Source: Burkholderiales bacterium
GTDB lineage: Bacteria > Pseudomonadota > Gammaproteobacteria > Burkholderiales > Burkholderiaceae_C
NCBI GenBank assembly: GCA_028871575.1
Contig: JAGWMW010000001.1
Coordinates: 1-59,622, forward strand
Direction of reading: 5' to 3'
DNA length: 59,622 bases
Every line of letters begins with the position of its first letter. Within the stretch, counting starts at the first letter, position 1. Of the stretch, positions 36,100 to 49,126 are shown in pieces. The notes beneath the pieces were generated by a model that had not been told where the DNA came from, made no database searches, and saw nothing but the letters and a program-made list of their open reading frames with translations. Position numbers and translations under genes: made by a program.

Positions 36100-38232
36100 C
36101 TAGGGCGCCGGCGAGCCCGCGGCGACGCTGCGCAGGTCCTGGGCCACGCGCCCGTCGTGCAGCGCGATCACGCGGCCCGCCGAGGCGATGGTCTCGGGTC
36201 GGTGGGCCACGATGATGCGAGTAAGCGCTAGCTGCCTGATCGAGTGATTGACGCTGCGCTCGCGCTCCACGTCGAGCGAGCTGGTGGCCTCGTCCAGCAG
36301 CAGGATCTTCGGCCGCTTGTACAGCGCCCGGGCGAGCAGGATGCGCTGCTTCTGCCCACCCGACAGCGCGGTGCCCATGTCGCCGATCAGCGTGTGATAG
36401 CCCATCGGCATGGCCTCGATTTCGTCGTGCACCGCGGCCACCCGCGCGCACTGCTCGGCCCAGGCCAGGTCGGGCGCCGGGCTGAAGAAGCTGATGTTGT
36501 CGGCGATCGAGCCCGAGAACAGCGGCTCGTCCTGCATCACCACGCCGACCTGGTCGCGCCATGCACGCAACCCCAGCCGGGCCAGCGGCACGCCACCGGC
36601 CAGCACCTCGCCCGCCACCGGCGCGTGCACGCCCAGGATGATCTTCAGCAGCGTCGTCTTGCCGCAGCCGGACGGGCCCACGATGGCCACCGACTCGCCG
36701 GGCTCGATCTTCAGGCTCAGGCCGCGCAGGATCTCGGGCTCGCCGTCGGCATAGGCAAAGCGCAGGTCGCGCAGCTCGATGCCGGCGCCGAGCTCGCGCA
36801 CGGGCGCGGCCGTGTCCACCTCGGGCGGCGTGAGCACGATGTCGGCCAGCCGCTCGCCCTGCAGCCGCAGCATGCCGACCTCCACGGCCTTGTCGATCAG
36901 GCCGCTGACCCGGGCCGCAAACGTCTCGCGGTAGGCGAAGAACGCGAACAGCATGCCCACCGAGAAGCGGCCGTCCAGCACCAGACGCGCACCAATCCAC
37001 ACCACCGCGACCCGCTCCAGGCCGAACAGCAGGCGGTGGCCCAGCGTCACCAGCAGGTCGAGCCGGCGCATGCCCAGCTGCGCGTTCATCGTCTCCACCA
37101 CCAGGCTGGCGAATCGCGACTGACGATCGCCCTGGGCGTTGAACTGCTTGATCGCCTGCACGCCGCGCAGCGATTCGAGGAAGTGGCTGGATTGCCGCGC
37201 CTCGAACACCAGCGCGTCCTCGGTGGCCCGCGCCAGCGGGCGGTACGCCAGCGCGCGCAGCAGCGCGTACAGGCCCACGGCGGCCAGCGACACGCCCGTC
37301 AGCACCCCGCTGTACAGCGCCATCATCGCCAGCGTCAGCAGCATCATCGCGCCGTCGAGCAGGGCCTCGAGGAAGCTCGTGGTCAGCGTGCGCTGGATCT
37401 GCTGCACCGCGCCGAAGCGCGACCAGATGTCGCCGATGTGCCGCTTCTCGAACCAGGCCACCGGCAGCCGCAGCAAGTGCGCGAAGACGCTCACCATCCA
37501 CTGCAGGTTCAGTGACGACGACAGCACCAGCACCGCCCAGGAGCGCGCCGCCGCCGTGGCCACCTGGATCAGCACCAGCAGCCCGAAGCCCAGGCCCAGC
37601 GTCAGCAGCAGGTCGCGATCGGCGCTGACCAGCACGTCGTCCACCACCCACTGCATGAAGAACGGGCTGGCCAGCACGAACAGCTCCAGCGCCAGCGCCA
37701 GCACCAGGATCTGCGCCAGCGCGCGCTTGAGCCCGCGCACCGGCCCGATCAACTGCCGCAGGCCGACGTGGCGCCGCTCCTGCGCGGGCTGGAAGCTGGG
37801 CGCCGGCTGCAGCTCGAGCAGCACGCCGGTGAAGTGGCGCGACAGCTCGGCCGGCCGCACCCGCCGCCGGCCCCGCGCCGGGTCGTGCACGATGGCATCG
37901 CCGCCGCGCCAGCCCACCAGCACCACGAAGTGGTTGAGGTCCCAGTGCAGGATGCAGGGCAGCTGTACTTGCGCGAGCTCGTCGAGTTCGGCCCGCAGCG
38001 CGCGCGAATTCAGCTGCAGCGCCTCGGCCATGCGCACCAGGTCGGCCAGCGTGACGCCCTTGAGCGATAGCGCGAACCGCCGTCGCAGCGCCGCCAGGTC
38101 GGTGTCCAGCCCGTGTGCCGCGGCCACCATGGCCAGGCAGGCCAGGCCGCACTCGGCGGCCTCGGTCTGCAGCAACACCGGCACCCGGCCGCGCAGGACC
38201 CCGAGCCGGGCGCCGTCGCCATCGGCCGTCAC
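36100..38232 (-). CDS. Peptidase-containing ABC transporter (C39 + TMD + NBD; CvaB/RaxB-like)
   Basis: GTG overlaps HlyD stop (GTGA); QTEAAECGLAC catalytic Cys, HWDLNHFVVL His, DP Asp; GPSGCGKTT, LSGGQKQR, LDEATS. Confidence 0.95.
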   Translation of the reverse strand: MTADGDGARLGVLRGRVPVLLQTEAAECGLACLAMVAAAHGLDTDLAALRRRFALSLKGVTLADLVRMAEALQLNSRALRAELDELAQVQLPCILHWDLNHFVVLVGWRGGDAIVHDPARGRRRVRPAELSRHFTGVLLELQPAPSFQPAQERRHVGLRQLIGPVRGLKRALAQILVLALALELFVLASPFFMQWVVDDVLVSADRDLLLTLGLGFGLLVLIQVATAAARSWAVLVLSSSLNLQWMVSVFAHLLRLPVAWFEKRHIGDIWSRFGAVQQIQRTLTTSFLEALLDGAMMLLTLAMMALYSGVLTGVSLAAVGLYALLRALAYRPLARATEDALVFEARQSSHFLESLRGVQAIKQFNAQGDRQSRFASLVVETMNAQLGMRRLDLLVTLGHRLLFGLERVAVVWIGARLVLDGRFSVGMLFAFFAYRETFAARVSGLIDKAVEVGMLRLQGERLADIVLTPPEVDTAAPVRELGAGIELRDLRFAYADGEPEILRGLSLKIEPGESVAIVGPSGCGKTTLLKIILGVHAPVAGEVLAGGVPLARLGLRAWRDQVGVVMQDEPLFSGSIADNISFFSPAPDLAWAEQCARVAAVHDEIEAMPMGYHTLIGDMGTALSGGQKQRILLARALYKRPKILLLDEATSSLDVERERSVNHSIRQLALTRIIVAHRPETIASAGRVIALHDGRVAQDLRSVAAGSPAP

Positions 38233-39482
38233 AGCCGGCTCCGCAGGCCCAGCAGGGGCTCGAACAGCCATTGCACCAGGCGCCGGCGGTCGAGCATCAC
38301 GTCGGCCTGCAGCCGCATCCCCGCGGCCAGCGGCATCGCGGCCCGGGGTGCCGGGTCCAGCGCCACCGTGATGCGGAACAGCGGCTCGCTGCCGGCCCCC
38401 ACGGCCGGCAGGGCCAGCGCCGCCAGCTCGTTGGCCGCCAGCGGCGTGCGCGACACCTGCAGCACATGGCCGGGCTGCTGCCCGAACTCCTGGTAGGGGA
38501 AGGCCTCGTAGCGCAACCGCACCGCCTGCCCGGTCCGCACGAAGCCCACGGCGCTGGACGGCGCGTACAGCTGCGCCTGCAGCCGGGCGCCGCTCGGCAC
38601 CAGCGTGGCCAGCGCCGCCGCCGGCGACACGCTCTGGCCGACCTCGGCCAGCACGGTGCTGACGGTGCCCGACTGCGGGGCCCGCACCACCACCTGCTGC
38701 GGCGCACCCTGCTCGGCCGCGTCGCGCTCGACCTGGGCCAGGTCGCGCTCCAGGCTGCCCACCCGGCCCTCGGTCTGCAGCGGCAAGTCTCGCTGCTCGC
38801 CCGCCAGGGTGTCGCGCTCGCGCAGCAAGGCGGCGCGCTGCCGGGCCAGCGTCTGCGCGGCGGCCTGCAGCCCCAGCACCTCGTCCGACTTCGCCTGCAC
38901 CTGCGCCGGCGAGATGAAGTGATCGGCCTGCAGCGACTGCAGACGCGCCAGCGCCTGCTGCGCCAGCGCCAGCCGCTGCTGCTGCAGCCTCGCCTCGATG
39001 TCGAACTGCGCCAGCTCGCCGGCCAGCGACGATTGCCGACGCTCGAGCTCGCCCTGGCGCGACTGCGCCAGGGCGCGCGCCGCCTGCACCGCCTCGCGCA
39101 GGCTGCGCCGGCGCTCGTCCAGGCTGCGGCTCACCTGGGCCTGCGCCTCGGCGCCAAAGGTCGGTCGGTCCAGATCGAGCACGAAGAGCACGTCGCCGGC
39201 CCGCACCGGCTGGCCTTCGGCCGCGCGCCGCTCGACGACCGTGCCGCTGACCGAGGGCACGAGCCGGATCAGGCCGCGGTCGGGCACGAGCACGCCGGCC
39301 ACGGTCGCCTTGCGCGTGTACTGCGCCAGGCTCACGAAGGCCCCCAGGGCCAGGAGGGCGCAGACGGCGCCGGCGGTCAGCCAGCTCAGCGCCAGCGGCC
39401 GCACCAGTTGCACCGGGCCCAGCCATTGCTGCCGCTGGGCCGCGATCGCCTCGGGTCGGAACAACGGGCGCGCGGAGGCCAT
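38229..39482 (-). CDS. HlyD-family membrane fusion protein (CvaA/RaxA-like)
   Basis: LFRPEA N-terminus, single TM, long coiled coil, APQSG, LRYEAFPYQEFG, GMRLQA...WLFEPL. Confidence 0.93.
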   Translation of the reverse strand: MASARPLFRPEAIAAQRQQWLGPVQLVRPLALSWLTAGAVCALLALGAFVSLAQYTRKATVAGVLVPDRGLIRLVPSVSGTVVERRAAEGQPVRAGDVLFVLDLDRPTFGAEAQAQVSRSLDERRRSLREAVQAARALAQSRQGELERRQSSLAGELAQFDIEARLQQQRLALAQQALARLQSLQADHFISPAQVQAKSDEVLGLQAAAQTLARQRAALLRERDTLAGEQRDLPLQTEGRVGSLERDLAQVERDAAEQGAPQQVVVRAPQSGTVSTVLAEVGQSVSPAAALATLVPSGARLQAQLYAPSSAVGFVRTGQAVRLRYEAFPYQEFGQQPGHVLQVSRTPLAANELAALALPAVGAGSEPLFRITVALDPAPRAAMPLAAGMRLQADVMLDRRRLVQWLFEPLLGLRSRL

Positions 39483-39487
39483 GGACG

Positions 39488-39518
39488 AAAAAATGCGGGC
39501 CGCTTCAGGCGGCCCGCA
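39488..39518 (-). terminator. Intrinsic terminator between precursor gene and HlyD gene
   Basis: TGCGGGCCGC-N5-GCGGCCCGCA perfect 10-bp stem plus T6 on minus strand. Confidence 0.8.
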
Positions 39519-39578
39519 AGCACCTCGGGATCGGAGGGACGGCTCCCGGGGAGCGCAAAAAACGGCTTCTGGCGCGGA

Positions 39579-39740
39579 TCAGCCCACGCGCGGCAGCGGC
39601 TCCGGCACCGAGGCACCGCCGCTCACGCGCTTCAGGCTGGCAGCCTCCAGCGGCTGGGGGCGGCGCGGCTCGGCGGCCTGGGCGGCCTGACGGGCCTGGG
39701 TGTGGCGGGACTTGCTGAACAGGGATTGCAGACGCTGCAT
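39579..39740 (-). CDS. Double-glycine leader precursor peptide (53 aa), not in the ORF track
   Basis: GGAG SD; MQRLQSLFSKSRHTQARQAAQAAEPRRPQPLEAASLKRVSGG|ASVPEPLPRVG; directly upstream of HlyD and C39 exporter. Confidence 0.85.
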   Translation of the reverse strand: MQRLQSLFSKSRHTQARQAAQAAEPRRPQPLEAASLKRVSGGASVPEPLPRVG

Positions 39741-39815
39741 GACTCGGCTCCATCCAAATCAGGCCCGGGAATCCGAACCCATGGAAAGATTGAATCAGTC
39801 GCATCGCGCGCGCGT

Positions 39816-39835
39816 AACTGTCAAGTCTTACAGGG
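39816..39835 (-). promoter_or_regulatory. lux box upstream of precursor gene
   Basis: CCCTGTAAGACTTGACAGTT (minus) = CTGT-N8-ACAG dyad; -10-like CAATCT 23 nt downstream. Confidence 0.78.
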
Positions 39836-39884
39836 TGCCGCTGCAAGCCGCGAGGCCGCCCCAGGGTGGCCGCTCGGTCCCACC

Positions 39885-40598
39885 TCAGTGGATGAGCCCC
39901 AGGCGCAGCGCCTTCAGCACCGCCTGGTGCTTGTTGTTGCAATTGAGCTTGTGCATCGCGTGGTTGATGTGCAGCACCGCCGTGCGTTCGGTGATGCCGA
40001 GCACCGCGCCCACCTCCCAGGCGGTCTTGCCCTCCATCGTCCAGCGCAGCACCTCGAGCTCGCGCGGCGTCAGCGCCGGCTTCTCGGCCTGCTGTGCAGG
40101 CGGCAGCAGCAGCCGCATTGCAGCTTCCTGGGCATGCACGGCGAACAGCTGCAGGTCGGCGACGATGCGCTGCAGCTCGCCGGGGTCGGCGGGCAGGGCC
40201 TGGTCGCGGTCCACGCCGAGCAGGAAATGCTTGCCCTCGGGCAGGTGCAGCGCCATCGCCACGCCGGTGCGGTAGCCGTAGCTGGCCTGCTGCTCCCACA
40301 GGTCGCCCGCGCCGCTGTCGACGTAGGTGTCCTGGTTCCAGATGATGGGCACCGTCTCGCGCTTGCAGTGCTGCAGCACCGGATCTCGACGCCCGTCGCT
40401 GACGTCGGAATAGGGCTCCACGTAGTCCTGCGGCGTGTTGTCGATCGTGATCAATTCGGCGCTGCCCAGCCCGCGATCGATCATCGTCACCGCCGAGACG
40501 GTCTCGAACCCGAGCTGGCGCGTGAAGCGCACCACCTCGTCGCGAAACTCTTCGCGGTCACGGGCCTGAAGCACCGTCGTATAACCACCCGGCAGCAT
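39885..40598 (-). CDS. LuxR-family regulator with autoinducer-binding domain (LuxR solo)
   Basis: NTPQDYVEPY...DPV...PIIW...G ligand domain; LTPRELEVLRW..EGKT HTH; no luxI in window. Confidence 0.93.
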   Translation of the reverse strand: MLPGGYTTVLQARDREEFRDEVVRFTRQLGFETVSAVTMIDRGLGSAELITIDNTPQDYVEPYSDVSDGRRDPVLQHCKRETVPIIWNQDTYVDSGAGDLWEQQASYGYRTGVAMALHLPEGKHFLLGVDRDQALPADPGELQRIVADLQLFAVHAQEAAMRLLLPPAQQAEKPALTPRELEVLRWTMEGKTAWEVGAVLGITERTAVLHINHAMHKLNCNNKHQAVLKALRLGLIH

Positions 40599-40640
40599 GG
40601 CGTTCCTCGCCCCATCGGCGCAAGACGTCAGGGCACGGCA

Positions 40641-40660
40641 CCCTGACAGGATTGACAGCT
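40641..40660 (+). promoter_or_regulatory. lux box upstream of DUF4902-like gene, 42 nt from the luxR start
   Basis: CCCTGACAGGATTGACAGCT, 15/20 identical to the box at 39816-39835; -10-like AAAGAT 22 nt downstream. Confidence 0.75.
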
Positions 40661-40694
40661 TTCGCAGGCTCGATGCTTGGCCAAAGATACGGCC

Positions 40695-41108
40695 ATGCAG
40701 AACATCGAAGCAGCAGCCCCACTCTCCAGCCTCCCTACCACGGCCTGGTCTTTGCGTTCTTGGCCCCCCCTATTGTGGCAGGCCGGCGAGCGTTCGCACG
40801 TGCGCTTTCAGCACCTGAGCACGCGCGTGACGCTGGGTCTTTGCGCACCCGGGCCCGCGGCCGGACAGACCGTCTGGGCAGCCTCGGCGGCCGACGGCGA
40901 GGCCGGCATGGCCTGGGACTGGGTGCTCATCGCGCGCGGCGTGGTCGCGATGGCCGACCCCATGTCCGTCATCACCAACGTGCGCCTGCTCGGCGAAGAA
41001 GGCGAAGTGCTGACGGCGGTGGAGTCGGCCCGCTTCCTCAACGAGTTCGTGCGTGCCCTGCCCTGGCAGCAGGAAGTGCAGCGCGCGCTCGGCCGGCAGC
41101 TGAACTGA
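40695..41108 (+). CDS. DUF4902-like protein
   Basis: GQTVW, GMAWDW, DPMSVITNVRL and LPWQQEV resemble the recalled DUF4902 pattern; divergent from luxR. Confidence 0.7.
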   Translation: MQNIEAAAPLSSLPTTAWSLRSWPPLLWQAGERSHVRFQHLSTRVTLGLCAPGPAAGQTVWAASAADGEAGMAWDWVLIARGVVAMADPMSVITNVRLLGEEGEVLTAVESARFLNEFVRALPWQQEVQRALGRQLN

Positions 41109-41194: not shown

Positions 41195-42361
41195 CTACCG
41201 CAGCGCCACGCTGCGCAGCACGCGCACCACGTAAGCCAGCGCCAGCGCGGTCAGCAGCAGCCCCACCGCCACCCCGGGCAGCACCAGCGCCGGCGCCAGC
41301 GGCTCGCCCTTGAGCACGCGGCCCATCAGCGTGGTCTGCGCCAGCGCCGGCACCCAGTAGTGCCAGGGCCGGGCGCCCTCCTGGCCGAAAAGCGAGATCA
41401 GCGGCAGCAGCGACAGCCCCAGCACCAGCACGGTTGCGCCGGCCTGCGCCTCCTTGAACGTGCGGCAGCGGATCGCGATGGCCATCAGCAGCGCCGACAC
41501 CGCCCCTGCCAGCGGCAGCAGCAGGGCCACGAAGGCCAGCGCCTCGCGCGGGCCGAAGCGGAACATCGCCGCCAGCAGCTCGCTGCGCAGCAGCCACTGC
41601 CCGGGCAGGAAGCTCAGGCAGGACAGCACCGCGATCAAGAGGCCCACGCTGGCCACGGCCGCCCACTTGCCCAGCACGAGCGCGGCGCGCGGCGCCGGTT
41701 TCGTCAGCAAGGGCTCGAGCGAGCCGCGCTCGCGCTCGCCGGCCGTGCTGTCCAGCGCCGCGTTCAGGGCGCCGTACAGCACCGCCATCAGCACGAAGTA
41801 CGGCACCATCGCGCTGAGCTGCGCGGCCCGCGTGGCGGGGTCGGCGAGGTCGATCTCCTCGATGCGCACCGCCTGCAGCGCCGCCGGCGCCACCCCGCGC
41901 GCGGCCAGCCGCAGCACCGCCTGCTCGCGGTCGAAGCCGCGCAGCAGCCGCAGCAGAGCGCCCACCCCGGCCTGCGCGCGCGGGTTGCCCGAGCTCGACA
42001 CCACCTGCAGCCGCGGCGCGTGCCCGTCCACCAGGCCGGCCTCGAAGCCGGGCGGCACCACCAGCACCGGCTCGCCCAGGCGGCTGCTTTCGAGCTGCTG
42101 CTCGTAGTCGGCCGGCGCGGGCCGCAGCTCGCAGGTCTGGCGCTCGAAGTAGTTGCGCAGGCTGGGCGCCTGCGCCAGGCCCTGCACGACGACGACACGG
42201 TCTTCGGCGCGCCTCTCCAGCCCCGCCACCAGGTTCGAGACCAGCAGCAGCACCAGCGGCCCGATCGCCACCGAGCTGAGCAGCACCGTCGCCAGCGTGC
42301 GCCGGTCGCGCAGGGCGTCGACCAGCTCCTTGGCGTAGACGACCCAGAAGGCGCCCCTCAT
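41195..42361 (-). CDS. ABC-2 type exporter permease (NatB-like)
   Basis: KELVDALRDRRT, AGERERGSLEPLL, multiple TM segments. Confidence 0.88.
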   Translation of the reverse strand: MRGAFWVVYAKELVDALRDRRTLATVLLSSVAIGPLVLLLVSNLVAGLERRAEDRVVVVQGLAQAPSLRNYFERQTCELRPAPADYEQQLESSRLGEPVLVVPPGFEAGLVDGHAPRLQVVSSSGNPRAQAGVGALLRLLRGFDREQAVLRLAARGVAPAALQAVRIEEIDLADPATRAAQLSAMVPYFVLMAVLYGALNAALDSTAGERERGSLEPLLTKPAPRAALVLGKWAAVASVGLLIAVLSCLSFLPGQWLLRSELLAAMFRFGPREALAFVALLLPLAGAVSALLMAIAIRCRTFKEAQAGATVLVLGLSLLPLISLFGQEGARPWHYWVPALAQTTLMGRVLKGEPLAPALVLPGVAVGLLLTALALAYVVRVLRSVALR

Positions 42362-43131
42362 GGCGCCGCCTGCGGCGCGGCCGCGGCCTGCCCGTACGCC
42401 AGTCGCACGAAGGTCTCCTCGAAGTCGGCCTGCCCGGTGCGCGCGGCCAGCTCGCTCAGCGTGCCCTCGGCCACGGCACGCCCGCCGGCCATCACCACCA
42501 CCCGGTCGCACAGGCGCTCGACCTCCTGCATCACGTGGCTGGAGAACACGATGCACTTGCCCTGCTCGTCGCGCAGCCGGCGCAGGGTCTGGCGCAGCGC
42601 GCGCGTGGCCAGCACGTCCAGGCCGTTGGTGGGCTCGTCGAGCACGATGTTCGGCGGATCGTGCACCAGCGCCCGCGCCAGCGCGGTCTTCATGCGCTCG
42701 CCCTGGCTGAAGCCCTCGGTGCGGCGGTCCAGCAGCTCCCGCATCGCCAGCATGTCGGCCAGGGCCTCGGCCCGACGCCGAGCCACCACCGCCGGCAGGC
42801 CGTGCAGGCGGCCGTAATAGACGATGTTCTCGCGCGCGGTCAGCCGCGGGTACAGCCCGCGCGCGTCGCTGAGCACGCCCATCCGCGCCTGCGCGGCGGC
42901 CGGCGCGCCGGCCACGTCGATGCCGTCCACCCGCACCTGCCCGGCGTCGGCCCCGATCAGGCCGGCGGCGATGCGCAGCGTGGTCGTCTTGCCGGCGCCG
43001 TTGGGGCCGAGCAGCCCGGTGATGCAGCCATCGGCGGCCGTGAAGCTCAGGCCGTCGACGGCCTGCACCGGCGGCGCCCGGCGCCCTGGGCCGGAGGCGA
43101 ACTGCTTGCACAGGGCCTGCACCTCGATCAC
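42358..43131 (-). CDS. ABC exporter ATP-binding protein (NatA-like)
   Basis: GPNGAGKTT, FSQGE, LDEPTNGLD, SSH; GTGA overlap. Confidence 0.9.
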   Translation of the reverse strand: MIEVQALCKQFASGPGRRAPPVQAVDGLSFTAADGCITGLLGPNGAGKTTTLRIAAGLIGADAGQVRVDGIDVAGAPAAAQARMGVLSDARGLYPRLTARENIVYYGRLHGLPAVVARRRAEALADMLAMRELLDRRTEGFSQGERMKTALARALVHDPPNIVLDEPTNGLDVLATRALRQTLRRLRDEQGKCIVFSSHVMQEVERLCDRVVVMAGGRAVAEGTLSELAARTGQADFEETFVRLAYGQAAAAPQAAP

Positions 43132-44669
43132 GGACGGTCTCCGTCGTGCACCGGCACGAAGGCCGGCGGGCGCGGCAGCCGGGCCGCGCAGCCGGCATCG
43201 AGCCGCAGCGCGCGGGCATCGCTGGCGGCGTCGATGAACCGGTAGACCAGGTCGCGCAGGCAGGGGATGGCCAGCAGCCCATGGCCGGCCTGGGCGACCG
43301 TCACCTGGCGCGCCATCGGCCCCAGCGCGCGGGCCACCTCGGCGGCATGCCGCGGTGGCGTCGCCGGGTCGGCGCCGCCGGCCAGCAGCAAGGCCGGCAC
43401 GCGGGCCACCGGCAGGCGGTAGAAGTCGGCCGGCACCGGGCCGCGGGGCCAGTCCGCGCACACCTGGCGGTACTGCTGCGCAAACGCCTGGCCGAAATCG
43501 GCGCCGGGCAGGTCGCCGGCCTGGTCCAGGCGGGGTGCATCCTCGCTGCACACGACCGAGAAGTGCATGCCTTCGTAGAGCTTGCCCGGCCCGCCTTCGG
43601 TGGCCGCCGACAGACCCACCAGCGGCTCGAAGCGGCCCTGCGCGGCCTCGTGCAGCGCCAGCGGCAGCCCCGCCGCGAGCCAGGGCGCGTACAGCGGGCC
43701 GCGCACCAGGCCCAGCACCATGTCGCGCGTGAACGTCAGGCGCTGCACCTGCCCGGTCAGCGGCTGCGCCACGCTCGCCTCGAGCGGCAGCGAGGCCAGC
43801 AGGGCCCGCCAGTCGGCCCGCAGCGTGGGGTAGGCGCGGTGGCAGTCGGCATCGCCCTCGCAGGCCGCCAGCAGGCCGTCCAGCGCCGCCTGGTTGTCGG
43901 TCGAGAACGAGGCCGGCAGCACCATGCCAGGCGGTGCCACGCCGTCCAGCACCACCCGCCGCACGTGCTGCGGGTACTGGCGCAGGTAGTCGAGCGCCGC
44001 GCGCGTGCCGTAGGAGCCGCCCACCAGATTCAGCCGGGCCGCCCCGATCGCCCGGCGCACGGCCTCGGTGTCCTGGCTCGCGATCCAGGTGGCATAGAAG
44101 CGCAGGTCGCCCCAGGGCAGCTTTTGCAGCGCGCTGCGGCAGGCCTGCATCCGCGCCGGCACCCGCGCTGGATCGAGCTGCTCCGACAGCGGCGCCGTCG
44201 GCCGGCCTGCGGGGCAGGCCAGCGGCGCGCTCAGGCCGGTGCCGCGCTGGTCGATCAGCAGGATGTCGCGCCGGTTCGACAGCCGCGCCAGCATCGCGTG
44301 GATCGGTCCCGCCAGCTCGATGGCGCTCTGCCCTGGCCCGCCCGCGAAGAACACCACCGGGTCGGGCTGCGGGTTGCGAGCCAGCGCCGGCAGCAGCGCG
44401 TAATGCACCTGGATCTGCGGCCCGAGCGGCCGCGCCGGGTCCAGCGGCCGCTGCACCTGACCGCACAGCGCGGCGTGCTCGAGGCCGTCGAGCCGGCAGG
44501 GCGTCGGGGCCTGGGCGCGGGCCCCTGCCGTCGCGGCCAGCAGGGGCAGCGCCGCGGCCAGGGCCAGGGCCAGGCCGGCGGCGCGCGAGCGCCGGGGCGG
44601 GCGCGAGGGCGGGCTCAAGGGCGGGCTCAAGGGCGGGCTCAAGGGCGGGCTCAAGGGCGAGCGCGCCAC
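43128..44669 (-). CDS. Secreted alpha/beta hydrolase, S33/TAP-like aminopeptidase family; start uncertain
   Basis: Signal peptide; GGPG, DQRGTG, GGSYGT nucleophile elbow, DPATP, GHG. Confidence 0.85.
   Translation of the reverse strand: MARSPLSPPLSPPLSPPLSPPSRPPRRSRAAGLALALAAALPLLAATAGARAQAPTPCRLDGLEHAALCGQVQRPLDPARPLGPQIQVHYALLPALARNPQPDPVVFFAGGPGQSAIELAGPIHAMLARLSNRRDILLIDQRGTGLSAPLACPAGRPTAPLSEQLDPARVPARMQACRSALQKLPWGDLRFYATWIASQDTEAVRRAIGAARLNLVGGSYGTRAALDYLRQYPQHVRRVVLDGVAPPGMVLPASFSTDNQAALDGLLAACEGDADCHRAYPTLRADWRALLASLPLEASVAQPLTGQVQRLTFTRDMVLGLVRGPLYAPWLAAGLPLALHEAAQGRFEPLVGLSAATEGGPGKLYEGMHFSVVCSEDAPRLDQAGDLPGADFGQAFAQQYRQVCADWPRGPVPADFYRLPVARVPALLLAGGADPATPPRHAAEVARALGPMARQVTVAQAGHGLLAIPCLRDLVYRFIDAASDARALRLDAGCAARLPRPPAFVPVHDGDRP
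44607..44654. repeat. 12-bp tandem repeat x4 (TTGAGCCCGCCC on minus; encodes LSPP)
   Basis: Four exact units at 44607, 44619, 44631, 44643. Confidence 0.92.
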
Positions 44670-44674
44670 CGCGG

Positions 44675-45040
44675 TCAGGCCAGCAGCCTGCGCAGCTCGC
44701 CGCTGTCGATGAGGCGCTGCAGGTCGTCGGCGCCGCCGACCAGCATGCCCTTGACGAAGACCATCGGCAGCGTCGGCCAGCCGGTCCACATCTTCAGCGC
44801 ATTGCGCTGGCGCCAGGCGCCGAAGTAGCTGCCGTACTCGAGGTAAGTGTGAGCGATGCCGGCGGCGGCCAGCGAGCGCCGCGCGCGGCGCGGGTACGGG
44901 TTCTGCGCCATCCCCACCACCACCACCGCGTCGCGCGCCACGGCGGCCTGGACCTCGCGCAGCGTGGCCTCGTGGTGGCGGGCGACCTGCTCGCGCACGG
45001 CCGGATGGATCTGCGATTCGTCGAGGATGGGGCGTGGCAT
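44675..45040 (-). CDS. Glutaredoxin-like protein lacking cysteine
   Basis: WPTLPMVFVKG.LVGGADD Grx motif; NPYP at the active-site position. Confidence 0.8.
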   Translation of the reverse strand: MPRPILDESQIHPAVREQVARHHEATLREVQAAVARDAVVVVGMAQNPYPRRARRSLAAAGIAHTYLEYGSYFGAWRQRNALKMWTGWPTLPMVFVKGMLVGGADDLQRLIDSGELRRLLA

Positions 45041-45188
45041 GGGGCGTCGGTCTCCTGCGCCGGAATCTAACCGAGCCCCGCGACGCGAGGCCGGCACCCC
45101 GCATCCGCGGGGGCCGGGCGCAACTTTGCACGCCGGGCGCTGCGGCCGGCCTCCGCGCCGCGCGCCGCCGGGGTCGGCCGCGCCTACG

Positions 45189-48044
45189 ATGCCGGCCGTG
45201 TCCGCATCCCCCCGCCTTCCGAGCCGGCCTCCGCGCCCCCGTCGAGTCGCCCTGGCGCTGGCCGTGGCCGGGGCCGGGGCCGCGCTGGCCCTGCTGGCCG
45301 GCCCGGCCCGGGCCGACAACGCCGACCAGGCCGCGCGCCTGTACGACGACGCACTGACCCGCTACGAGAAGCACGACCTGGCCGGTGCGGCGCTGCAGCT
45401 CAAGAGCGCGCTGCAGCTCGACCGCAAGCAGCTCCCGGTGCATGTGCTGCTGGGCAAGGTGCTGCTGGACAGCGGCCAGCCCGCGGCCGCCGAGGCCGAG
45501 TTCACCCAGGCGCTGGACCTGGGCGTGAACCGGGCCGAGGTGGTCGTGCTGCTGGCGCGCAGCCTGGTCGCGCAAGGCCGCGAGCAGGAAGTGATCGACG
45601 ACGCGCGCTTCGCCCTCGCGGGCCTGCCCGACGCCACGCTGGCCCCGCTGCTGCTGATCAAGGCCGGCTGCTACGCCGATCTCGGCCAGGCCCGCGCCGC
45701 GCTCGACGCGGTGGCCGCGGCGCGCCAGGCCGACCCGCGCTCGCCCGAGGGTTGGCTGGCCGAGGTGCCGATCCGCATCCGGGCCCGCCAGTTCGCCGAG
45801 GCCCGCGCCGCGGTCGAGCGCGCGCGCGCGCTGGCGCCGGGCTCGGCCGCGGTGCATTACGCGCTTGCCTCGATCCTGCATGTCGCGGGCGACGAAGCCG
45901 GCGCGCTGGCCGCCTACGACCAGACCCTCGCGGCCGACCCCGGCCATGTCGACGCCCGGGTGGCGCGCGCCGGCATCTACGTCGACATGAAGCGCGACGC
46001 CGACGCCGAGCGCGACATCGCCGTGCTCACGCGCGATGCGGCACTGGAGCCGCGCGGCTGGTATCTCGGCGCGCTGCTGGCCGAGCGTGCCGGCCGCACC
46101 GCGGCCATGAAGTCGGCCCTGCGGAAAGTGACCGAGCTGCTCGACCCGGTGCCGCTGGGCTTCATCCGCTACCGGCCGCAGATGCTGCTGCTGAACGGCC
46201 AGGCCCACTACGGCCTGGGCGAGAACGAGAAGGCGCTGCCCTACTTCGAGGCCTTCCAGCGCGTGCAGCCGGGCACGCCGGTGGCCAAGGTGCTGGGCAG
46301 CCTGTACCTGGTCAACGGCAACCGCGACCGCGCCGTGGACGTGCTCGAGGACTACCTGCGCGGCACCCCGGGCGATGCCCAGGCCATGGCGCTGCTGGCC
46401 TCGGCCTACATGGCCAAGGGGCGCAACGCGCGCGCCGCCGACCTGATGCAGCAGGCGCTGCAACGCAACGACGCCCCCGAGCTCTACGCGGCCTACGGAC
46501 TGAGCCTGATGCGATCGGGCCGCAGCGCCGACGCCCGGCAGCAGCTCGAGGCCGCGTTCCGCAAGGACCCGCAGCAGACCCAGGCCGGCTACGCGCTGGT
46601 CGGCCTGTACCTGCGCGCCGGCCAGCTCGACAAGGCGCAGGCCGTGGCCGGCACGCTGGTGCGCCAGCAGCCCGCCAACCCCAGCCTGCAGAACCTGCTG
46701 GGCATGGTGCTGGCCAGCCGGCGCGACGTGGCCGGCGCGCGCACCGCCTTCGAGCAGGCGCTCAAGCTCGACCCCACGCTCACCCAGGCCAGCCTGAACC
46801 TGGCCCGGCTCGAGGTGGCGGCGGCGCACTTCGACCGCGCGCAGGGCCTGCTCGACGGCGTGCTGGCCAAGGCCGCCGGCAACACCGAGGCCATGGTCGA
46901 GCAGGCCGTGCTGGCCGAGCGCCGCGGGCACCAGCCCGATGCGCTGCGCTGGCTCACCAAGGCCTGGGACACCGCCGGCGCGAGCGACCTGCGCGCCAGC
47001 CTGGCCCTGGTCGACCTGCAGATGCGCCTGGGCCGGCCCGACCTGGCGCTGAAGGTGGCGCAGCAGGTCGCGGCCAGCCGCAGCGACAACCTGCCCGCCC
47101 TGCTGGCGCTCACCCGGGCACAACTGGCCAGCCACGACGCCGCCGGCGCCCGCGTCACGCTCACCGCGGCCACCCGCTATGCCGGATTCGAGGCGCCGGT
47201 GCAGGTCGAGATCGCCCTGCTGCAGCAGGCCGCAGGCAACCTGGCCGGTGCGGCCTACAGCCTGGACAAGGCGCTGTCGGCCCAGCCCGAGTACCTGCCC
47301 GCCCAGGCCCTGATGGCCGAGATCCAGACGCGCCAGGGAGACTTCGCCGGCGCCGAGCAGCGAGCGCGGCACCTCGTGGCCAAGGCCCCCAGGCTGGCCA
47401 TCGGCTACAGCCTGCTCGGCGACCTGGCCCTGGCGCGGCAGCAGCCCGAGCCGGCGCTGGCCGCCTACCGCAAGGCCCACGCCGTGCAGCCCTCGACCGA
47501 CACCCTGCAGCGCCTGGCCGGCTTGCTGTCGGCGCTCGACCCGGCGGCTGGCCTGGCCCTCGTCGAATCCTGGGTCCGGGCCCATCCCGCCGACGCCGTC
47601 GCCACCAACCTGCTGGCGCAGGCCTACGTGCGGCGCGGCCAATTCGCGCCGGCGCGCGATGTCTACCTGCGCCTGCGCGCCGCGCGGCCCCAGGACCCCG
47701 GCGTCATGAACGATCTGGCCAACGTCCAGCTGGCGCTGAACGACCCGCAGGCCCTGGCCACCGCCGAGCAGGCCCTGGCCGCCGACCCGGGCAATCCGCT
47801 GGTCATCGACACGGCCGGCTGGGCCGCCTTCCGCGCCGGCAAGGCCGACCGCGCAGCCCAGCTGCTGCGCGATGCCCGCCTGCGCGATCCCGGCAACGGC
47901 ACCATCCGCTACCACCTGGCCGCCGTGCTGGCGCAGACCGGCCGCCGCGCCGAAGCGCGTGACGAGCTGCGCACGGCACTGAAGGCGCAGGCCGATTTCG
48001 ACGGTCGCGGGGCGGCCAAGGCCCTGCTGGCGACCCTCGAGTGA
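45189..48044 (+). CDS. prsT: PEP-CTERM system TPR-repeat protein PrsT
   Basis: Signal peptide; AALQLKSALQ N-terminus; about 950 aa of TPRs ending DTAGW...YHLA; adjacent to a PEP-CTERM gene. Confidence 0.82.
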   Translation: MPAVSASPRLPSRPPRPRRVALALAVAGAGAALALLAGPARADNADQAARLYDDALTRYEKHDLAGAALQLKSALQLDRKQLPVHVLLGKVLLDSGQPAAAEAEFTQALDLGVNRAEVVVLLARSLVAQGREQEVIDDARFALAGLPDATLAPLLLIKAGCYADLGQARAALDAVAAARQADPRSPEGWLAEVPIRIRARQFAEARAAVERARALAPGSAAVHYALASILHVAGDEAGALAAYDQTLAADPGHVDARVARAGIYVDMKRDADAERDIAVLTRDAALEPRGWYLGALLAERAGRTAAMKSALRKVTELLDPVPLGFIRYRPQMLLLNGQAHYGLGENEKALPYFEAFQRVQPGTPVAKVLGSLYLVNGNRDRAVDVLEDYLRGTPGDAQAMALLASAYMAKGRNARAADLMQQALQRNDAPELYAAYGLSLMRSGRSADARQQLEAAFRKDPQQTQAGYALVGLYLRAGQLDKAQAVAGTLVRQQPANPSLQNLLGMVLASRRDVAGARTAFEQALKLDPTLTQASLNLARLEVAAAHFDRAQGLLDGVLAKAAGNTEAMVEQAVLAERRGHQPDALRWLTKAWDTAGASDLRASLALVDLQMRLGRPDLALKVAQQVAASRSDNLPALLALTRAQLASHDAAGARVTLTAATRYAGFEAPVQVEIALLQQAAGNLAGAAYSLDKALSAQPEYLPAQALMAEIQTRQGDFAGAEQRARHLVAKAPRLAIGYSLLGDLALARQQPEPALAAYRKAHAVQPSTDTLQRLAGLLSALDPAAGLALVESWVRAHPADAVATNLLAQAYVRRGQFAPARDVYLRLRAARPQDPGVMNDLANVQLALNDPQALATAEQALAADPGNPLVIDTAGWAAFRAGKADRAAQLLRDARLRDPGNGTIRYHLAAVLAQTGRRAEARDELRTALKAQADFDGRGAAKALLATLE

Positions 48045-48148
48045 GGGGTCGCCGACCCCACTGCGCGCGGTCGAGGGTTCTTACAATTGATCACGGTTCG
48101 GCATGCGGCGTAACGGTAAGTCCTTGGGCCCCGGCAAGTCTCCGCCTC

Positions 48149-48163
48149 TGGCACCCCGCTTGC
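48149..48163 (+). promoter_or_regulatory. Sigma-54 promoter for PEP-CTERM gene
   Basis: Perfect TGGCAC-N5-TTGC; possible enhancer half-match GGT-N11-ACA at 48069-48085. Confidence 0.85.
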
Positions 48164-48220
48164 CTGCCTAACCCCAAAGCGCCCGGATCCGGGCCAGCCG
48201 TGAAAGTCGAGGGACGTCGA

Positions 48221-49126
48221 ATGCATCAGATCTCCAAGTGGGTGGGCAGCGTGGCCCTGGTGGCCGGACTGGGGTTTGCCGGCGCGGCAAACGCCACCTG
48301 GACCTTCAAGGGCTCCGGCGCCAACGACACCAACGGCGACCCGCTGGCCAAGACCAGCTACACGCCCGATGCCGGTTTCACGGGCGACCCGTCGCTGAAC
48401 ATCAGCGGTGTCTATGCCCGCAATGGCAGCGGCAACGTCGGCTTCGCCTCGGGTGCCAGCTGGGCGTCCAAGGCATTGACCTATTACGACCCGAACGGGC
48501 TGGGCATGTCCTCCGACGGCAACACGGCGCCGAACCATGCGATCGACAACAACGGCAACACCGAAGGCATCCTGCTGAGCTTCGGCAGCAGCGTCGTGCT
48601 CAGCAGCATCGGCATCGGCTACAAGTCCGGCGACGCCGACATCTCGGTGTTCCGCTACACCGGCGCGTCGGCCCCGGCCTCGCTGCCGGGCTCGTCGGTC
48701 GGCAGCTTCGTGACCGATGCGCTGGGCACCGCGAACTCGGGCTGGGACCTGGTCGGCAACTACGCCAACCTGGCCGTGGACAACACCAACCCGTACAACA
48801 TGATCAACGGCTGCACCAATGCCAGCGGCACCGCCGTGTGCTCGTCCAGCAGCAAGGGCTCGAGCTGGTGGCTGATCACGGCCTACAACACGGCTTTCGG
48901 CACCGGCGCCAACCTGACCCAGGGCGACGACTACTTCAAGGTCTACGCCGTCGCCGGCAGCAAGTGCACGGCCGGCGGCACCGCCTGCGGCAGCACCACC
49001 ACGACCGGGGGCAACGTGCCCGAGCCCGGATCGCTGGCCCTGGTGATCGCGGCGCTGACCGGCACCTGGGCGGCGCGGCGCAAGAGCGGTCGGGCGGCGG
49101 CCAGGCACGCCCTGGCAGCCGCCTAG
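48221..49126 (+). CDS. PEP-CTERM surface protein (XDP1-like)
   Basis: Signal peptide; SSWWLITAYN and DYFK motifs; VPEPGSLAL + TM + basic tail. Confidence 0.9.
   Translation: MHQISKWVGSVALVAGLGFAGAANATWTFKGSGANDTNGDPLAKTSYTPDAGFTGDPSLNISGVYARNGSGNVGFASGASWASKALTYYDPNGLGMSSDGNTAPNHAIDNNGNTEGILLSFGSSVVLSSIGIGYKSGDADISVFRYTGASAPASLPGSSVGSFVTDALGTANSGWDLVGNYANLAVDNTNPYNMINGCTNASGTAVCSSSSKGSSWWLITAYNTAFGTGANLTQGDDYFKVYAVAGSKCTAGGTACGSTTTTGGNVPEPGSLALVIAALTGTWAARRKSGRAAARHALAAA

What the first reader, a model, noticed from the sequence alone, without database searches (positions are those of the whole stretch)
36100..41108. Candidate new system: LuxR solo controlling a double-glycine secreted peptide, its C39 exporter and a DUF4902-like gene
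Seen: luxR, lux box, 53-aa GG precursor, terminator, hlyD and C39-ABC exporter lie in series on the minus strand; a second lux box and a DUF4902-like gene diverge from luxR. No luxI, modifying enzyme or obvious small immunity gene lies within the cluster. Known: LuxR-type receptors usually sense AHLs, GG-leader peptide pheromones are typical of Gram-positive bacteria, and CvaAB/RaxAB-type pairs export GG peptides. Inference: the peptide operon sits where an autoinduced luxI normally would, so the peptide is either the signal of a peptide-LuxR loop or an effector released in response to an outside signal.
Basis: partly seen in the sequence, partly recalled or inferred. Interest (0 to 1): 0.92.

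Follow-up and report, generated by a model that had tools for sequence, protein, structure and literature searches.

The report
Peptide-sensing LuxR quorum-sensing circuit
In this Gram-negative bacterium and about 200 related loci, a tiny peptide gene sits where the signal-making enzyme of a quorum-sensing circuit normally sits, and its five-to-seven-residue core changes in step with the receptor's binding pocket, so these bacteria likely talk with peptides through a receptor type known for fatty-acid lactone signals.

Summary
Observation confirmed and extended. luxR, lux box, 53-codon double-glycine precursor, terminator, hlyD and C39-ABC are present; the DUF4902 gene is RsaM, a known luxI/luxR-linked regulator. 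The cassette belongs to a large Burkholderiales family. Of 232 evaluable loci, 217 carry a short ORF with a core xPxxxW or xPR[VI]G (controls 3-13), 204 the box, and 209 of 217 rsaM. The core stays with luxR when leader and exporter are lost (exporter at 172 of 179 GG loci, 1 of 29 others). Three of four lactone-binding residues are replaced. When the core changes between sister loci, only LuxR residues ~50-76 show excess change (p~1e-5; a leader placebo is null). Four core positions covary most with four residues that line the LasR pocket, with size and charge complementarity. Best reading: the processed peptide is the LuxR ligand in an autoinducing loop (0.72); binding and activation are untested. 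A third box precedes a heme-oxygenase-like/RpfF-like operon in 10 of 12 genomes with the close LuxR versus 1 of 18 without. No description was found in six literature searches; only the rsaM-luxR pair is in print.

The parts
39885..40598 (-). LuxR-family receptor/activator, 237 aa; pocket residues 59, 63, 69, 100 and 126 covary with the peptide core
   Evidence: PF03472+PF00196; fold matches QscR/RhlR/SdiA; gapless alignment to LasR, window n = LasR n+1; covariation
39816..39835 (-). lux-type box 1, driving the peptide operon
   Evidence: Top genome site, 35.0 bits; 199 of 200 loci at >=57% identity
39789..39797 (-). extended -10 element (TGnTnnAAT), placing box 1 near -43 as in class II activation
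   Evidence: T, G, T, A, A, T 94-100% conserved at 19-27 nt after the box in 199 loci; window position
39579..39740 (-). 53-aa precursor: double-glycine leader (cut predicted after G42), spacer, C-terminal core LPRVG
   Evidence: ORF; leader consensus in relatives; core family
39494..39518 (-). intrinsic terminator between precursor and exporter genes
   Evidence: 10-bp stem plus T run
38229..39482 (-). HlyD-type periplasmic adaptor
   Evidence: PF13437 E 2e-17
36100..38232 (-). C39 peptidase-containing ABC exporter, the only C39 found in the genome
   Evidence: PF03412, PF00664, PF00005; one match; catalytic motifs
40641..40660 (+). lux-type box 2, driving rsaM
   Evidence: 28.6 bits; 190 of 195 loci, shuffles 0
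40695..41108 (+). RsaM (DUF4902) homolog, predicted negative modulator
   Evidence: PF16245 in 27 of 51 homologs; the only PDB hit of the family profile is 4o2h BCAM1869, E 2.8e-5; PF16245 = RsaM domain (PMC10710839)
41195..44600 (-). possible accessory operon: secreted TAP-like serine peptidase plus an ABC ATPase and a permease; link to the system not shown
   Evidence: PF00561/PF08386 and PF00005; permease near luxR in 137 and peptidase in 94 of 232 loci; peptidase in 76 of 81 luxR genomes but also 35 of 220 without

Best explanation
This is likely a peptide quorum-sensing loop: the precursor is predicted to be cut after its Gly-Gly and exported by the adjacent C39-ABC/HlyD pair, would be trimmed to a short Pro-2 core (here LPRVG), would re-enter cells and bind the LuxR pocket, and the bound LuxR would then switch on its own precursor gene, rsaM and a heme-oxygenase-like/RpfF-like operon through the lux boxes. 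Shown: gene order, boxes, promoter geometry, conservation of the core, loss of the lactone contacts, and covariation of core and pocket. Inferred from known families: GG cleavage and export through a TolC elsewhere in the genome, activation from a box near -43, and RsaM as a damper. Inferred only: trimming by aminopeptidases that stop before X-Pro (perhaps the neighbouring TAP-like enzyme), uptake by an Opp/Dpp system, direct binding, and agonism. Variable cores with matched pockets would give lineage-specific pherotypes.
For: (1) The peptide ORF holds the luxI position behind the box in 217 of 232 loci (reverse strand 8, shuffles 3-13), and in 10 of 14 newly fetched family loci with the rule unchanged, versus 0 of 3 luxI-linked LuxRs. 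(2) Leader and exporter are gained and lost together (172 of 179 vs 1 of 29), while the core stays in leaderless polar and hydrophobic precursors of 10-30 aa. (3) Lactone H-bond residues of LasR (Y56, W60, D73, S129; PMC8296597 passages) read in 223 family proteins: never Y at 55, W in 8 at 59, D in 221 at 72, G in 221 at 128. (4) In 91 sister pairs, a core change goes with excess change in LuxR 57-71 (p 1.2e-5); sliding windows reach p<0.01 only over ~50-79. The effect holds with synonymous and leader divergence as covariates (t 5.0, 80 pairs), and a leader-change placebo is null (p 0.5). (5) In 180 six-residue cores the top partners are core 1-LuxR 126, 3-100, 4-63 and 5-69 (z 4.9-9.8). These equal LasR A127, F101, Y64 and A70, all in the published pocket list (PMC9654057 table; chance ~5e-4). 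Thr5 goes with Gly69 in 32 of 36, Gly5 in 1 of 111, same direction in about 7 of 8 independent pairs (p 0.016). Lys100 occurs with a non-basic core 3 in 20 of 55 and a basic one in 0 of 168. (6) A LuxI match at E<1e-15 in only 9 of 81 genomes with this LuxR. (7) 94 of 224 precursors repeat the core and 159 end on it. (8) Six Opp/Dpp-type binding proteins and many TolC-type domains are in the genome.
Against: No binding, expression or peptide-detection data. Covariation shows contact or shared selection, not agonism. The motif rule was written after seeing the data. Most single-residue links other than 5-69 and 3-59 did not reach significance in independent pairs, which were few (4-16). The window's core lacks the Trp of 180 family cores, and it pairs Gly at core 5 with Gly69, against the six-mer rule. 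Among distant members (38-57%) only 18 of 32 pass the rule and some have no visible ORF. Seven GG loci lack an adjacent exporter. No importer or dedicated trimming enzyme is tied to the cassette, and the export route of leaderless precursors is unknown. D72, P73, W87 and G112 of the AHL signature are kept in the window protein. The genome is 83.6% complete.
Confidence: 0.72

Rival explanations
1. The peptide binds the LuxR pocket but as an inhibitor or intracellular modulator (negative feedback on an apo-active LuxR, or one driven by another signal).
For: Explains the covariation equally well. Leaderless 10-20 aa forms have no visible export route. Ligand-independent LuxR solos exist (PMC10134790 class E, read).
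Against: Most members invest in a dedicated exporter and repeated cores, which suits an outside signal. rsaM already offers a brake. The peptide gene has the luxI position behind an activating box.
Confidence: 0.11
2. LuxR senses an AHL or other small molecule from outside and turns on export of a peptide effector (microcin-like toxin, or a signal for another receptor), in the logic of AHL-driven LuxR-smORF phage modules.
For: HlyD plus C39-ABC is the microcin export type (established knowledge). AHL-bound LuxR driving a small ORF that acts on another protein is published (PMC10432266 passages). D72, P73, W87 and G112 are kept.
Against: It does not predict that core residues covary with pocket residues, nor that the core stays when the exporter is lost. 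No conserved immunity or modifying gene in 232 loci. Cores of 5-7 residues are very short for an unmodified microcin (recalled). Three of four lactone contacts are replaced.
Confidence: 0.1
3. The peptide is a precursor that an unlinked enzyme converts (cyclises, cross-links or acylates) into the true LuxR ligand, so the linear core is inactive.
For: Invariant Pro and frequent C-terminal Trp resemble RiPP cores (recalled). The box-controlled heme-oxygenase-like enzyme could act on it.
Against: No modifying enzyme recurs near the cassette. The heme-oxygenase-like gene was found in only 49 of 121 genus genomes, and not with this query in several genomes that have the close LuxR. Trp-less cores are common near the window.
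Confidence: 0.07

Closest known systems
LuxI/LuxR AHL quorum sensing with RsaM (Burkholderia cep/bta, Pseudomonas fuscovaginae pfs)
   Same: LuxR fold, lux box near -43, rsaM adjacent and box-controlled, signal gene under the box.
   Different: No luxI; a peptide gene and exporter in its place; Y56, W60 and S129 equivalents replaced.
rsaM-luxR solo, topology 6a (PMC10710839; passages read)
   Same: Divergent rsaM-luxR pair without luxI in Pelomonas, Kinneretia, Albitalea, Xenophilus and Thauera; probably includes this family (not checked sequence by sequence).
   Different: The main text holds no occurrence of peptide, exporter or transporter; no ligand is proposed in the passages read.
PipR/OryR plant-responsive LuxR solos (PMC4981722 abstract; PMC10134790 part 3)
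   Same: LuxR that ignores AHLs, answers to a peptide (Ser-His-Ser at high concentration) and is flanked by peptidases and an ABC transporter.
   Different: The signal is external (HEHEAA), not self-encoded; the M57/W61 signature is absent here; no precursor gene.
RRNPP peptide pheromones of Firmicutes (PlcR-PapR, Rgg-SHP, ComR-XIP; largely recalled)
   Same: Short precursor next to an intracellular receptor, export, trimming, re-import, pherotypes; the hydrophobic precursors here resemble SHPs.
   Different: The receptor is a LuxR autoinducer domain, not a TPR protein; Gram-negative host; GG leader with type I export in most members.
PluR/PauR of Photorhabdus, class C LuxR solos (PMC10134790)
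   Same: LuxR solo reading a self-made non-AHL signal.
   Different: Signals are pyrones and resorcinols made by enzymes, without autoinduction.
XRE-LuxR-smORF modules of Aeromonas phages (PMC10432266 passages)
   Same: LuxR activates an unannotated small ORF.
   Different: There LuxR binds C4-HSL, needs XRE, and the small protein is an antirepressor; here chromosomal, no XRE, with an exported core.

Membership tests
LuxI/LuxR AHL quorum sensing | LuxR with autoinducer-binding and HTH domains | tested here: met
LuxI/LuxR AHL quorum sensing | Cognate luxI | tested here: not met
   None in the locus or the 83.6%-complete genome; 9 of 81 family genomes have a strong match anywhere
LuxI/LuxR AHL quorum sensing | Lactone H-bond residues Y56/W60/D73/S129 (LasR) | tested here: not met
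   T55, Y59, D72, G128; only D kept
LuxI/LuxR AHL quorum sensing | lux box at class II position before the signal gene | tested here: met
LuxI/LuxR AHL quorum sensing | Responds to AHL | not testable with these tools
   Needs a reporter assay
PAB LuxR solos (PipR/OryR) | W57M and Y61W substitutions | tested here: not met
   Position 59 is Y/F/W and 63 mostly F/Y/S/A
PAB LuxR solos (PipR/OryR) | Adjacent box-controlled pip gene | tested here: inconclusive
   A TAP-like peptidase lies 2.5 kb away but scores 45 bits vs cut-off 260 for prolyl aminopeptidase; no box site found there
RsaM | PF16245 domain, 140-170 aa, next to luxI/luxR | tested here: met
   E 4e-5 (1 bit under cut-off), 27 of 51 homologs hit; profile finds 4o2h; 137-143 aa
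RsaM | Represses the adjacent circuit | not testable with these tools
   Needs a mutant
Double-glycine peptide / PCAT export | LxxxxLxxVxGG leader with C39-ABC and HlyD | tested here: met
   L-12 in 159, L-7 in 160 and V-4 in 169 of about 190 leaders
Microcin / bacteriocin cluster | Immunity gene and antibacterial core | tested here: inconclusive
   No recurring gene >=90 aa of that kind; smaller genes were not searched; activity untestable
RRNPP systems | TPR-type receptor | tested here: not met
   LuxR fold
RpfF DSF synthase (distal operon) | Scores over the RpfF family cut-off | tested here: not met
   194 vs 550 bits for NF053515; over cut-off for NF006452; best PDB hits are RpfF, E 8e-49: RpfF-like only

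The most novel reading that the evidence does not exclude
A lineage of Burkholderiales replaced the AHL synthase of an rsaM-luxR-luxI cassette with a ribosomal peptide gene and re-tooled the LuxR pocket to read 5-7-residue peptides. The result is a widespread Gram-negative peptide quorum-sensing system with dozens of pherotypes, a readable residue code (1-126, 3-100, 4-63, 5-69), at least three precursor designs, and control over a DSF-type fatty-acid signal operon in part of the genus.
Probability: 0.7. Interest if true: 0.95.

Novelty: categorically new. Interest (0 to 1): 0.9.

Why it matters
Textbooks divide quorum sensing into AHL/LuxR in Gram-negatives and peptides in Gram-positives. A self-encoded peptide ligand for a LuxR domain would join the two, name a ligand for a large class of LuxR solos (81 of 301 sampled genomes of the family), and give a setting without AHL in which to test how RsaM works. 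It is directly testable with cheap synthetic hexapeptides in cultured species (Ideonella azotifigens, Aquincola agrisoli, Pseudaquabacterium inlustre, Rubrivivax sp. RP6-9). It also offers a set of orthogonal, gene-encoded inducer-receptor pairs.

Tried and rejected
Complex prediction of the LuxR domain with the precursor was not run because the queue was full: no structural verdict. RNA evidence: no RNA holder was listed, and three same-study RNA runs gave only short foreign matches; this says nothing on expression. Viral contigs: 9 hits, all to the HTH part only. Plasmids: no match at 1e-40. Class-wide draw of 400 genomes: one family member and one luxI-linked LuxR, so the family was not found outside the host family in those searched. 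Precursor against Pfam and NCBIfam: nothing beyond E 0.07. The sigma-70 scan found no promoter; the -10 came from alignment instead. Search for conserved modifying enzymes: none (first attempt timed out; ORFs under 90 aa not considered). Long family proteins were not RsaM fusions by Pfam. A strict box pattern in 10 near-complete genomes gave mostly the two cassette sites and scattered others with no shared target, so no family-wide regulon was found. Rejected: the whole 11-mer as the conserved product (the spacer varies freely); the ORF as a by-product of a DNA or RNA motif (28 codon spellings); the pocket signal as an effect of divergence time (covariates and placebo). Literature searches for the system found no description. 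The library lacks most subscription papers, and no supplements were read; those of PMC10710839 and PMC10134790 could list these loci.
Full report
Observation. The minus strand carries luxR (39885-40598), a 20-bp box (39816-39835), a 53-codon ORF ending in a GG leader and ASVPEPLPRVG (39579-39740), a terminator (39494-39518), hlyD (38229-39482) and a C39-ABC exporter (36100-38232). A second box (40641-40660) and a PF16245 gene diverge on the plus strand. The genome (3.3 Mb, 83.6% complete) shows one autoinducer-binding LuxR, one C39 domain and no LuxI match. The closest named relatives are Rubrivivax and other Burkholderiales. The DUF4902 gene is RsaM: a profile of 51 homologs finds only 4o2h BCAM1869 in the PDB (E 2.8e-5), and PF16245 is the RsaM domain (PMC10710839, passages).

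The family. I gathered loci from genome and metagenome scans and from a 300-genome draw of the host family. In that draw 83 of 301 genomes match at E<=1e-40; two sit beside luxI and are ordinary, leaving 81. A 400-genome class draw added nothing outside the family. After removing duplicates there were 261 LuxR proteins at >=38% identity. I dropped 20 with under 450 nt downstream and 9 followed by a tandem luxR, leaving 232, the window included. Of these, 217 have a ribosome-site ORF with a core xPxxxW, xPxxxGW or xPR[VI]G/S: 199 of 200 at >=57% identity and 18 of 32 below. One call (L236) is probably false, and 8 of the 15 misses show related cores by eye. The reverse strand gives 8 and shuffles give 3-13. 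The rule was written after seeing the data; applied unchanged to 14 newly fetched members it called 10, and none of 3 luxI-linked LuxRs. The downstream box is in 204 of 232 and rsaM in 209 of 217. The rsaM box is in 190 of 195. An extended -10 lies at a fixed distance behind box 1, placing the box near -43.

Three precursor designs, one core. Most precursors have a classical GG leader, a free spacer and one to five cores; 94 of 224 repeat the core and 159 end on it. Others are leaderless: polar 10-20-mers, or hydrophobic 17-29-mers like streptococcal SHPs (resemblance recalled). With 800 nt in view, 172 of 179 GG precursors have the exporter next to them and 1 of 29 others do, and that one has a GG leader my rule missed. 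The GG state needs 5 changes on the LuxR tree. So leader and exporter move together while the core stays with luxR. No modifying enzyme recurs nearby. Only 9 of the 81 genomes have a LuxI match at E<1e-15; five more have weak partial hits.

The pocket. The model folds like QscR, RhlR and SdiA, and the family aligns without gaps to LasR. Of the four residues that H-bond the lactone (PMC8296597, passages), only Asp is kept: in 223 proteins position 55 is never Tyr, 59 is Trp in 8, and 128 is Gly in 221. Residues 57-70 are hypervariable. In 91 sister pairs on separate branches, a change of core goes with excess change in 57-71 after allowing for background divergence (p 1.2e-5). A scan of 73 windows finds the signal only over about 50-79. 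It survives synonymous and leader divergence as covariates (t 5.0, 80 pairs), and a leader-change placebo gives p 0.5. In 180 six-residue cores (effective number 111) the top partners are 1-126, 3-100, 4-63 and 5-69, which equal LasR A127, F101, Y64 and A70, all in a published pocket list (PMC9654057, table passage). The pattern is complementary. Gly5 pairs with Met, Tyr, Trp or Gln at 69, while Thr5 pairs with Gly69 (32 of 36 versus 1 of 111; about 7 of 8 independent pairs, p 0.016). Lys100 appears only with a non-basic third residue (20 of 55 versus 0 of 168). Against this, most other single links are not significant in the few independent pairs, and the window's own Trp-less core pairs Gly5 with Gly69. 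Its nearest relatives share LPRVG/LPRVS, often twice, so it is a natural subtype.

A candidate output. A matrix scan of the genome gives a third site (21.4 bits, contig C268:6574, minus strand) before a heme-oxygenase-like redox gene and an RpfF-like crotonase. The redox gene is in 49 of 121 genus genomes; I examined the best 30, all with the rpfF-like gene. Box scores split into >=9.9 (11) and <=-0.5 (19). The box is present in 10 of 12 genomes with the close LuxR and 1 of 18 without (Fisher p 2e-5; kin are not independent). This suggests control of a DSF-type fatty-acid signal in part of the genus. An operon for a TAP-like peptidase and an ABC transporter flanks the cassette in many loci and occurs in 76 of 81 luxR genomes, but also in 35 of 220 without; its role is open.

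Mechanism. Most likely the precursor is cleaved and exported, trimmed to the Pro-2 core, re-imported (six Opp/Dpp-type binding proteins) and bound in the LuxR pocket, which activates the precursor gene, rsaM and the distal operon (0.72). Rivals: the peptide binds as an inhibitor (0.11); an outside small molecule drives export of an effector (0.10); a modified derivative is the ligand (0.07). Binding, agonism, trimming and uptake are inferred; the complex prediction could not be run.

Comparison and novelty. It works like an RRNPP pheromone loop built on the luxR-rsaM-luxI plan. It is not a member of AHL systems (no luxI, lactone contacts lost), PAB solos (signature absent) or RRNPP (wrong fold). 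The divergent rsaM-luxR solo pair is in print without the peptide. PipR answers to an external peptide (abstract). A review of LuxR solos lists no self-encoded peptide ligand in the passages and part read. Phage LuxR-smORF modules use AHL (passages). Searches found no description (listings only, plus passages of PMC13220807); subscription papers and supplements were not covered. Two earlier AI notes of this scan mention a similar LuxR-plus-peptide arrangement in prophages; I did not test them and they are not independent support. Verdict: real, likely a categorically new signalling system; interest 0.9.

Noticed in passing
G000:C268:4838-6593 (L335): Lux-type box before a heme-oxygenase-like redox gene and an RpfF-like crotonase; the box tracks the close LuxR across the genus. 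The enzyme pair may make a modified DSF-type fatty acid.
   Followed up: partly
window 41195-44600 (-): TAP-like serine peptidase plus ABC ATPase and permease, often next to the cassette, including beside distant leaderless members (L019, L022, L023, L374-L380); candidate trimming or export machinery.
   Followed up: partly
L235, L240, L243, L248: Tandem arrays of 3-5 luxR paralogs around one peptide gene, which may be eavesdropping receptors for other pherotypes.
   Followed up: no
L019, L025 versus window: Distant leaderless cassettes occupy the same site between the permease and mnmG, some in inverted orientation, suggesting swapping of cassettes at one locus near the parAB/mnmG region.
   Followed up: no
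window 40661-40697 (+): The -10-like element ends about 7 nt before the rsaM ATG in many loci, suggesting a leaderless mRNA.
   Followed up: no
L023: Two near-identical hydrophobic peptide genes in tandem behind luxR.
   Followed up: no
L015, L144, L146, L152, L155, L156, L159: A second tiny ORF of 7 codons with a PxGTW end follows the precursor gene; its start and meaning were not checked.
   Followed up: no
L332: A 30%-identity LuxR with a hydrophobic core-bearing peptide and a family-type box, so the system reaches beyond my 38% cut.
   Followed up: no
window 44856-49126: PrsT-like TPR protein (label from memory) and a PEP-CTERM protein (PF07589) near the cassette; no link seen.
   Followed up: no
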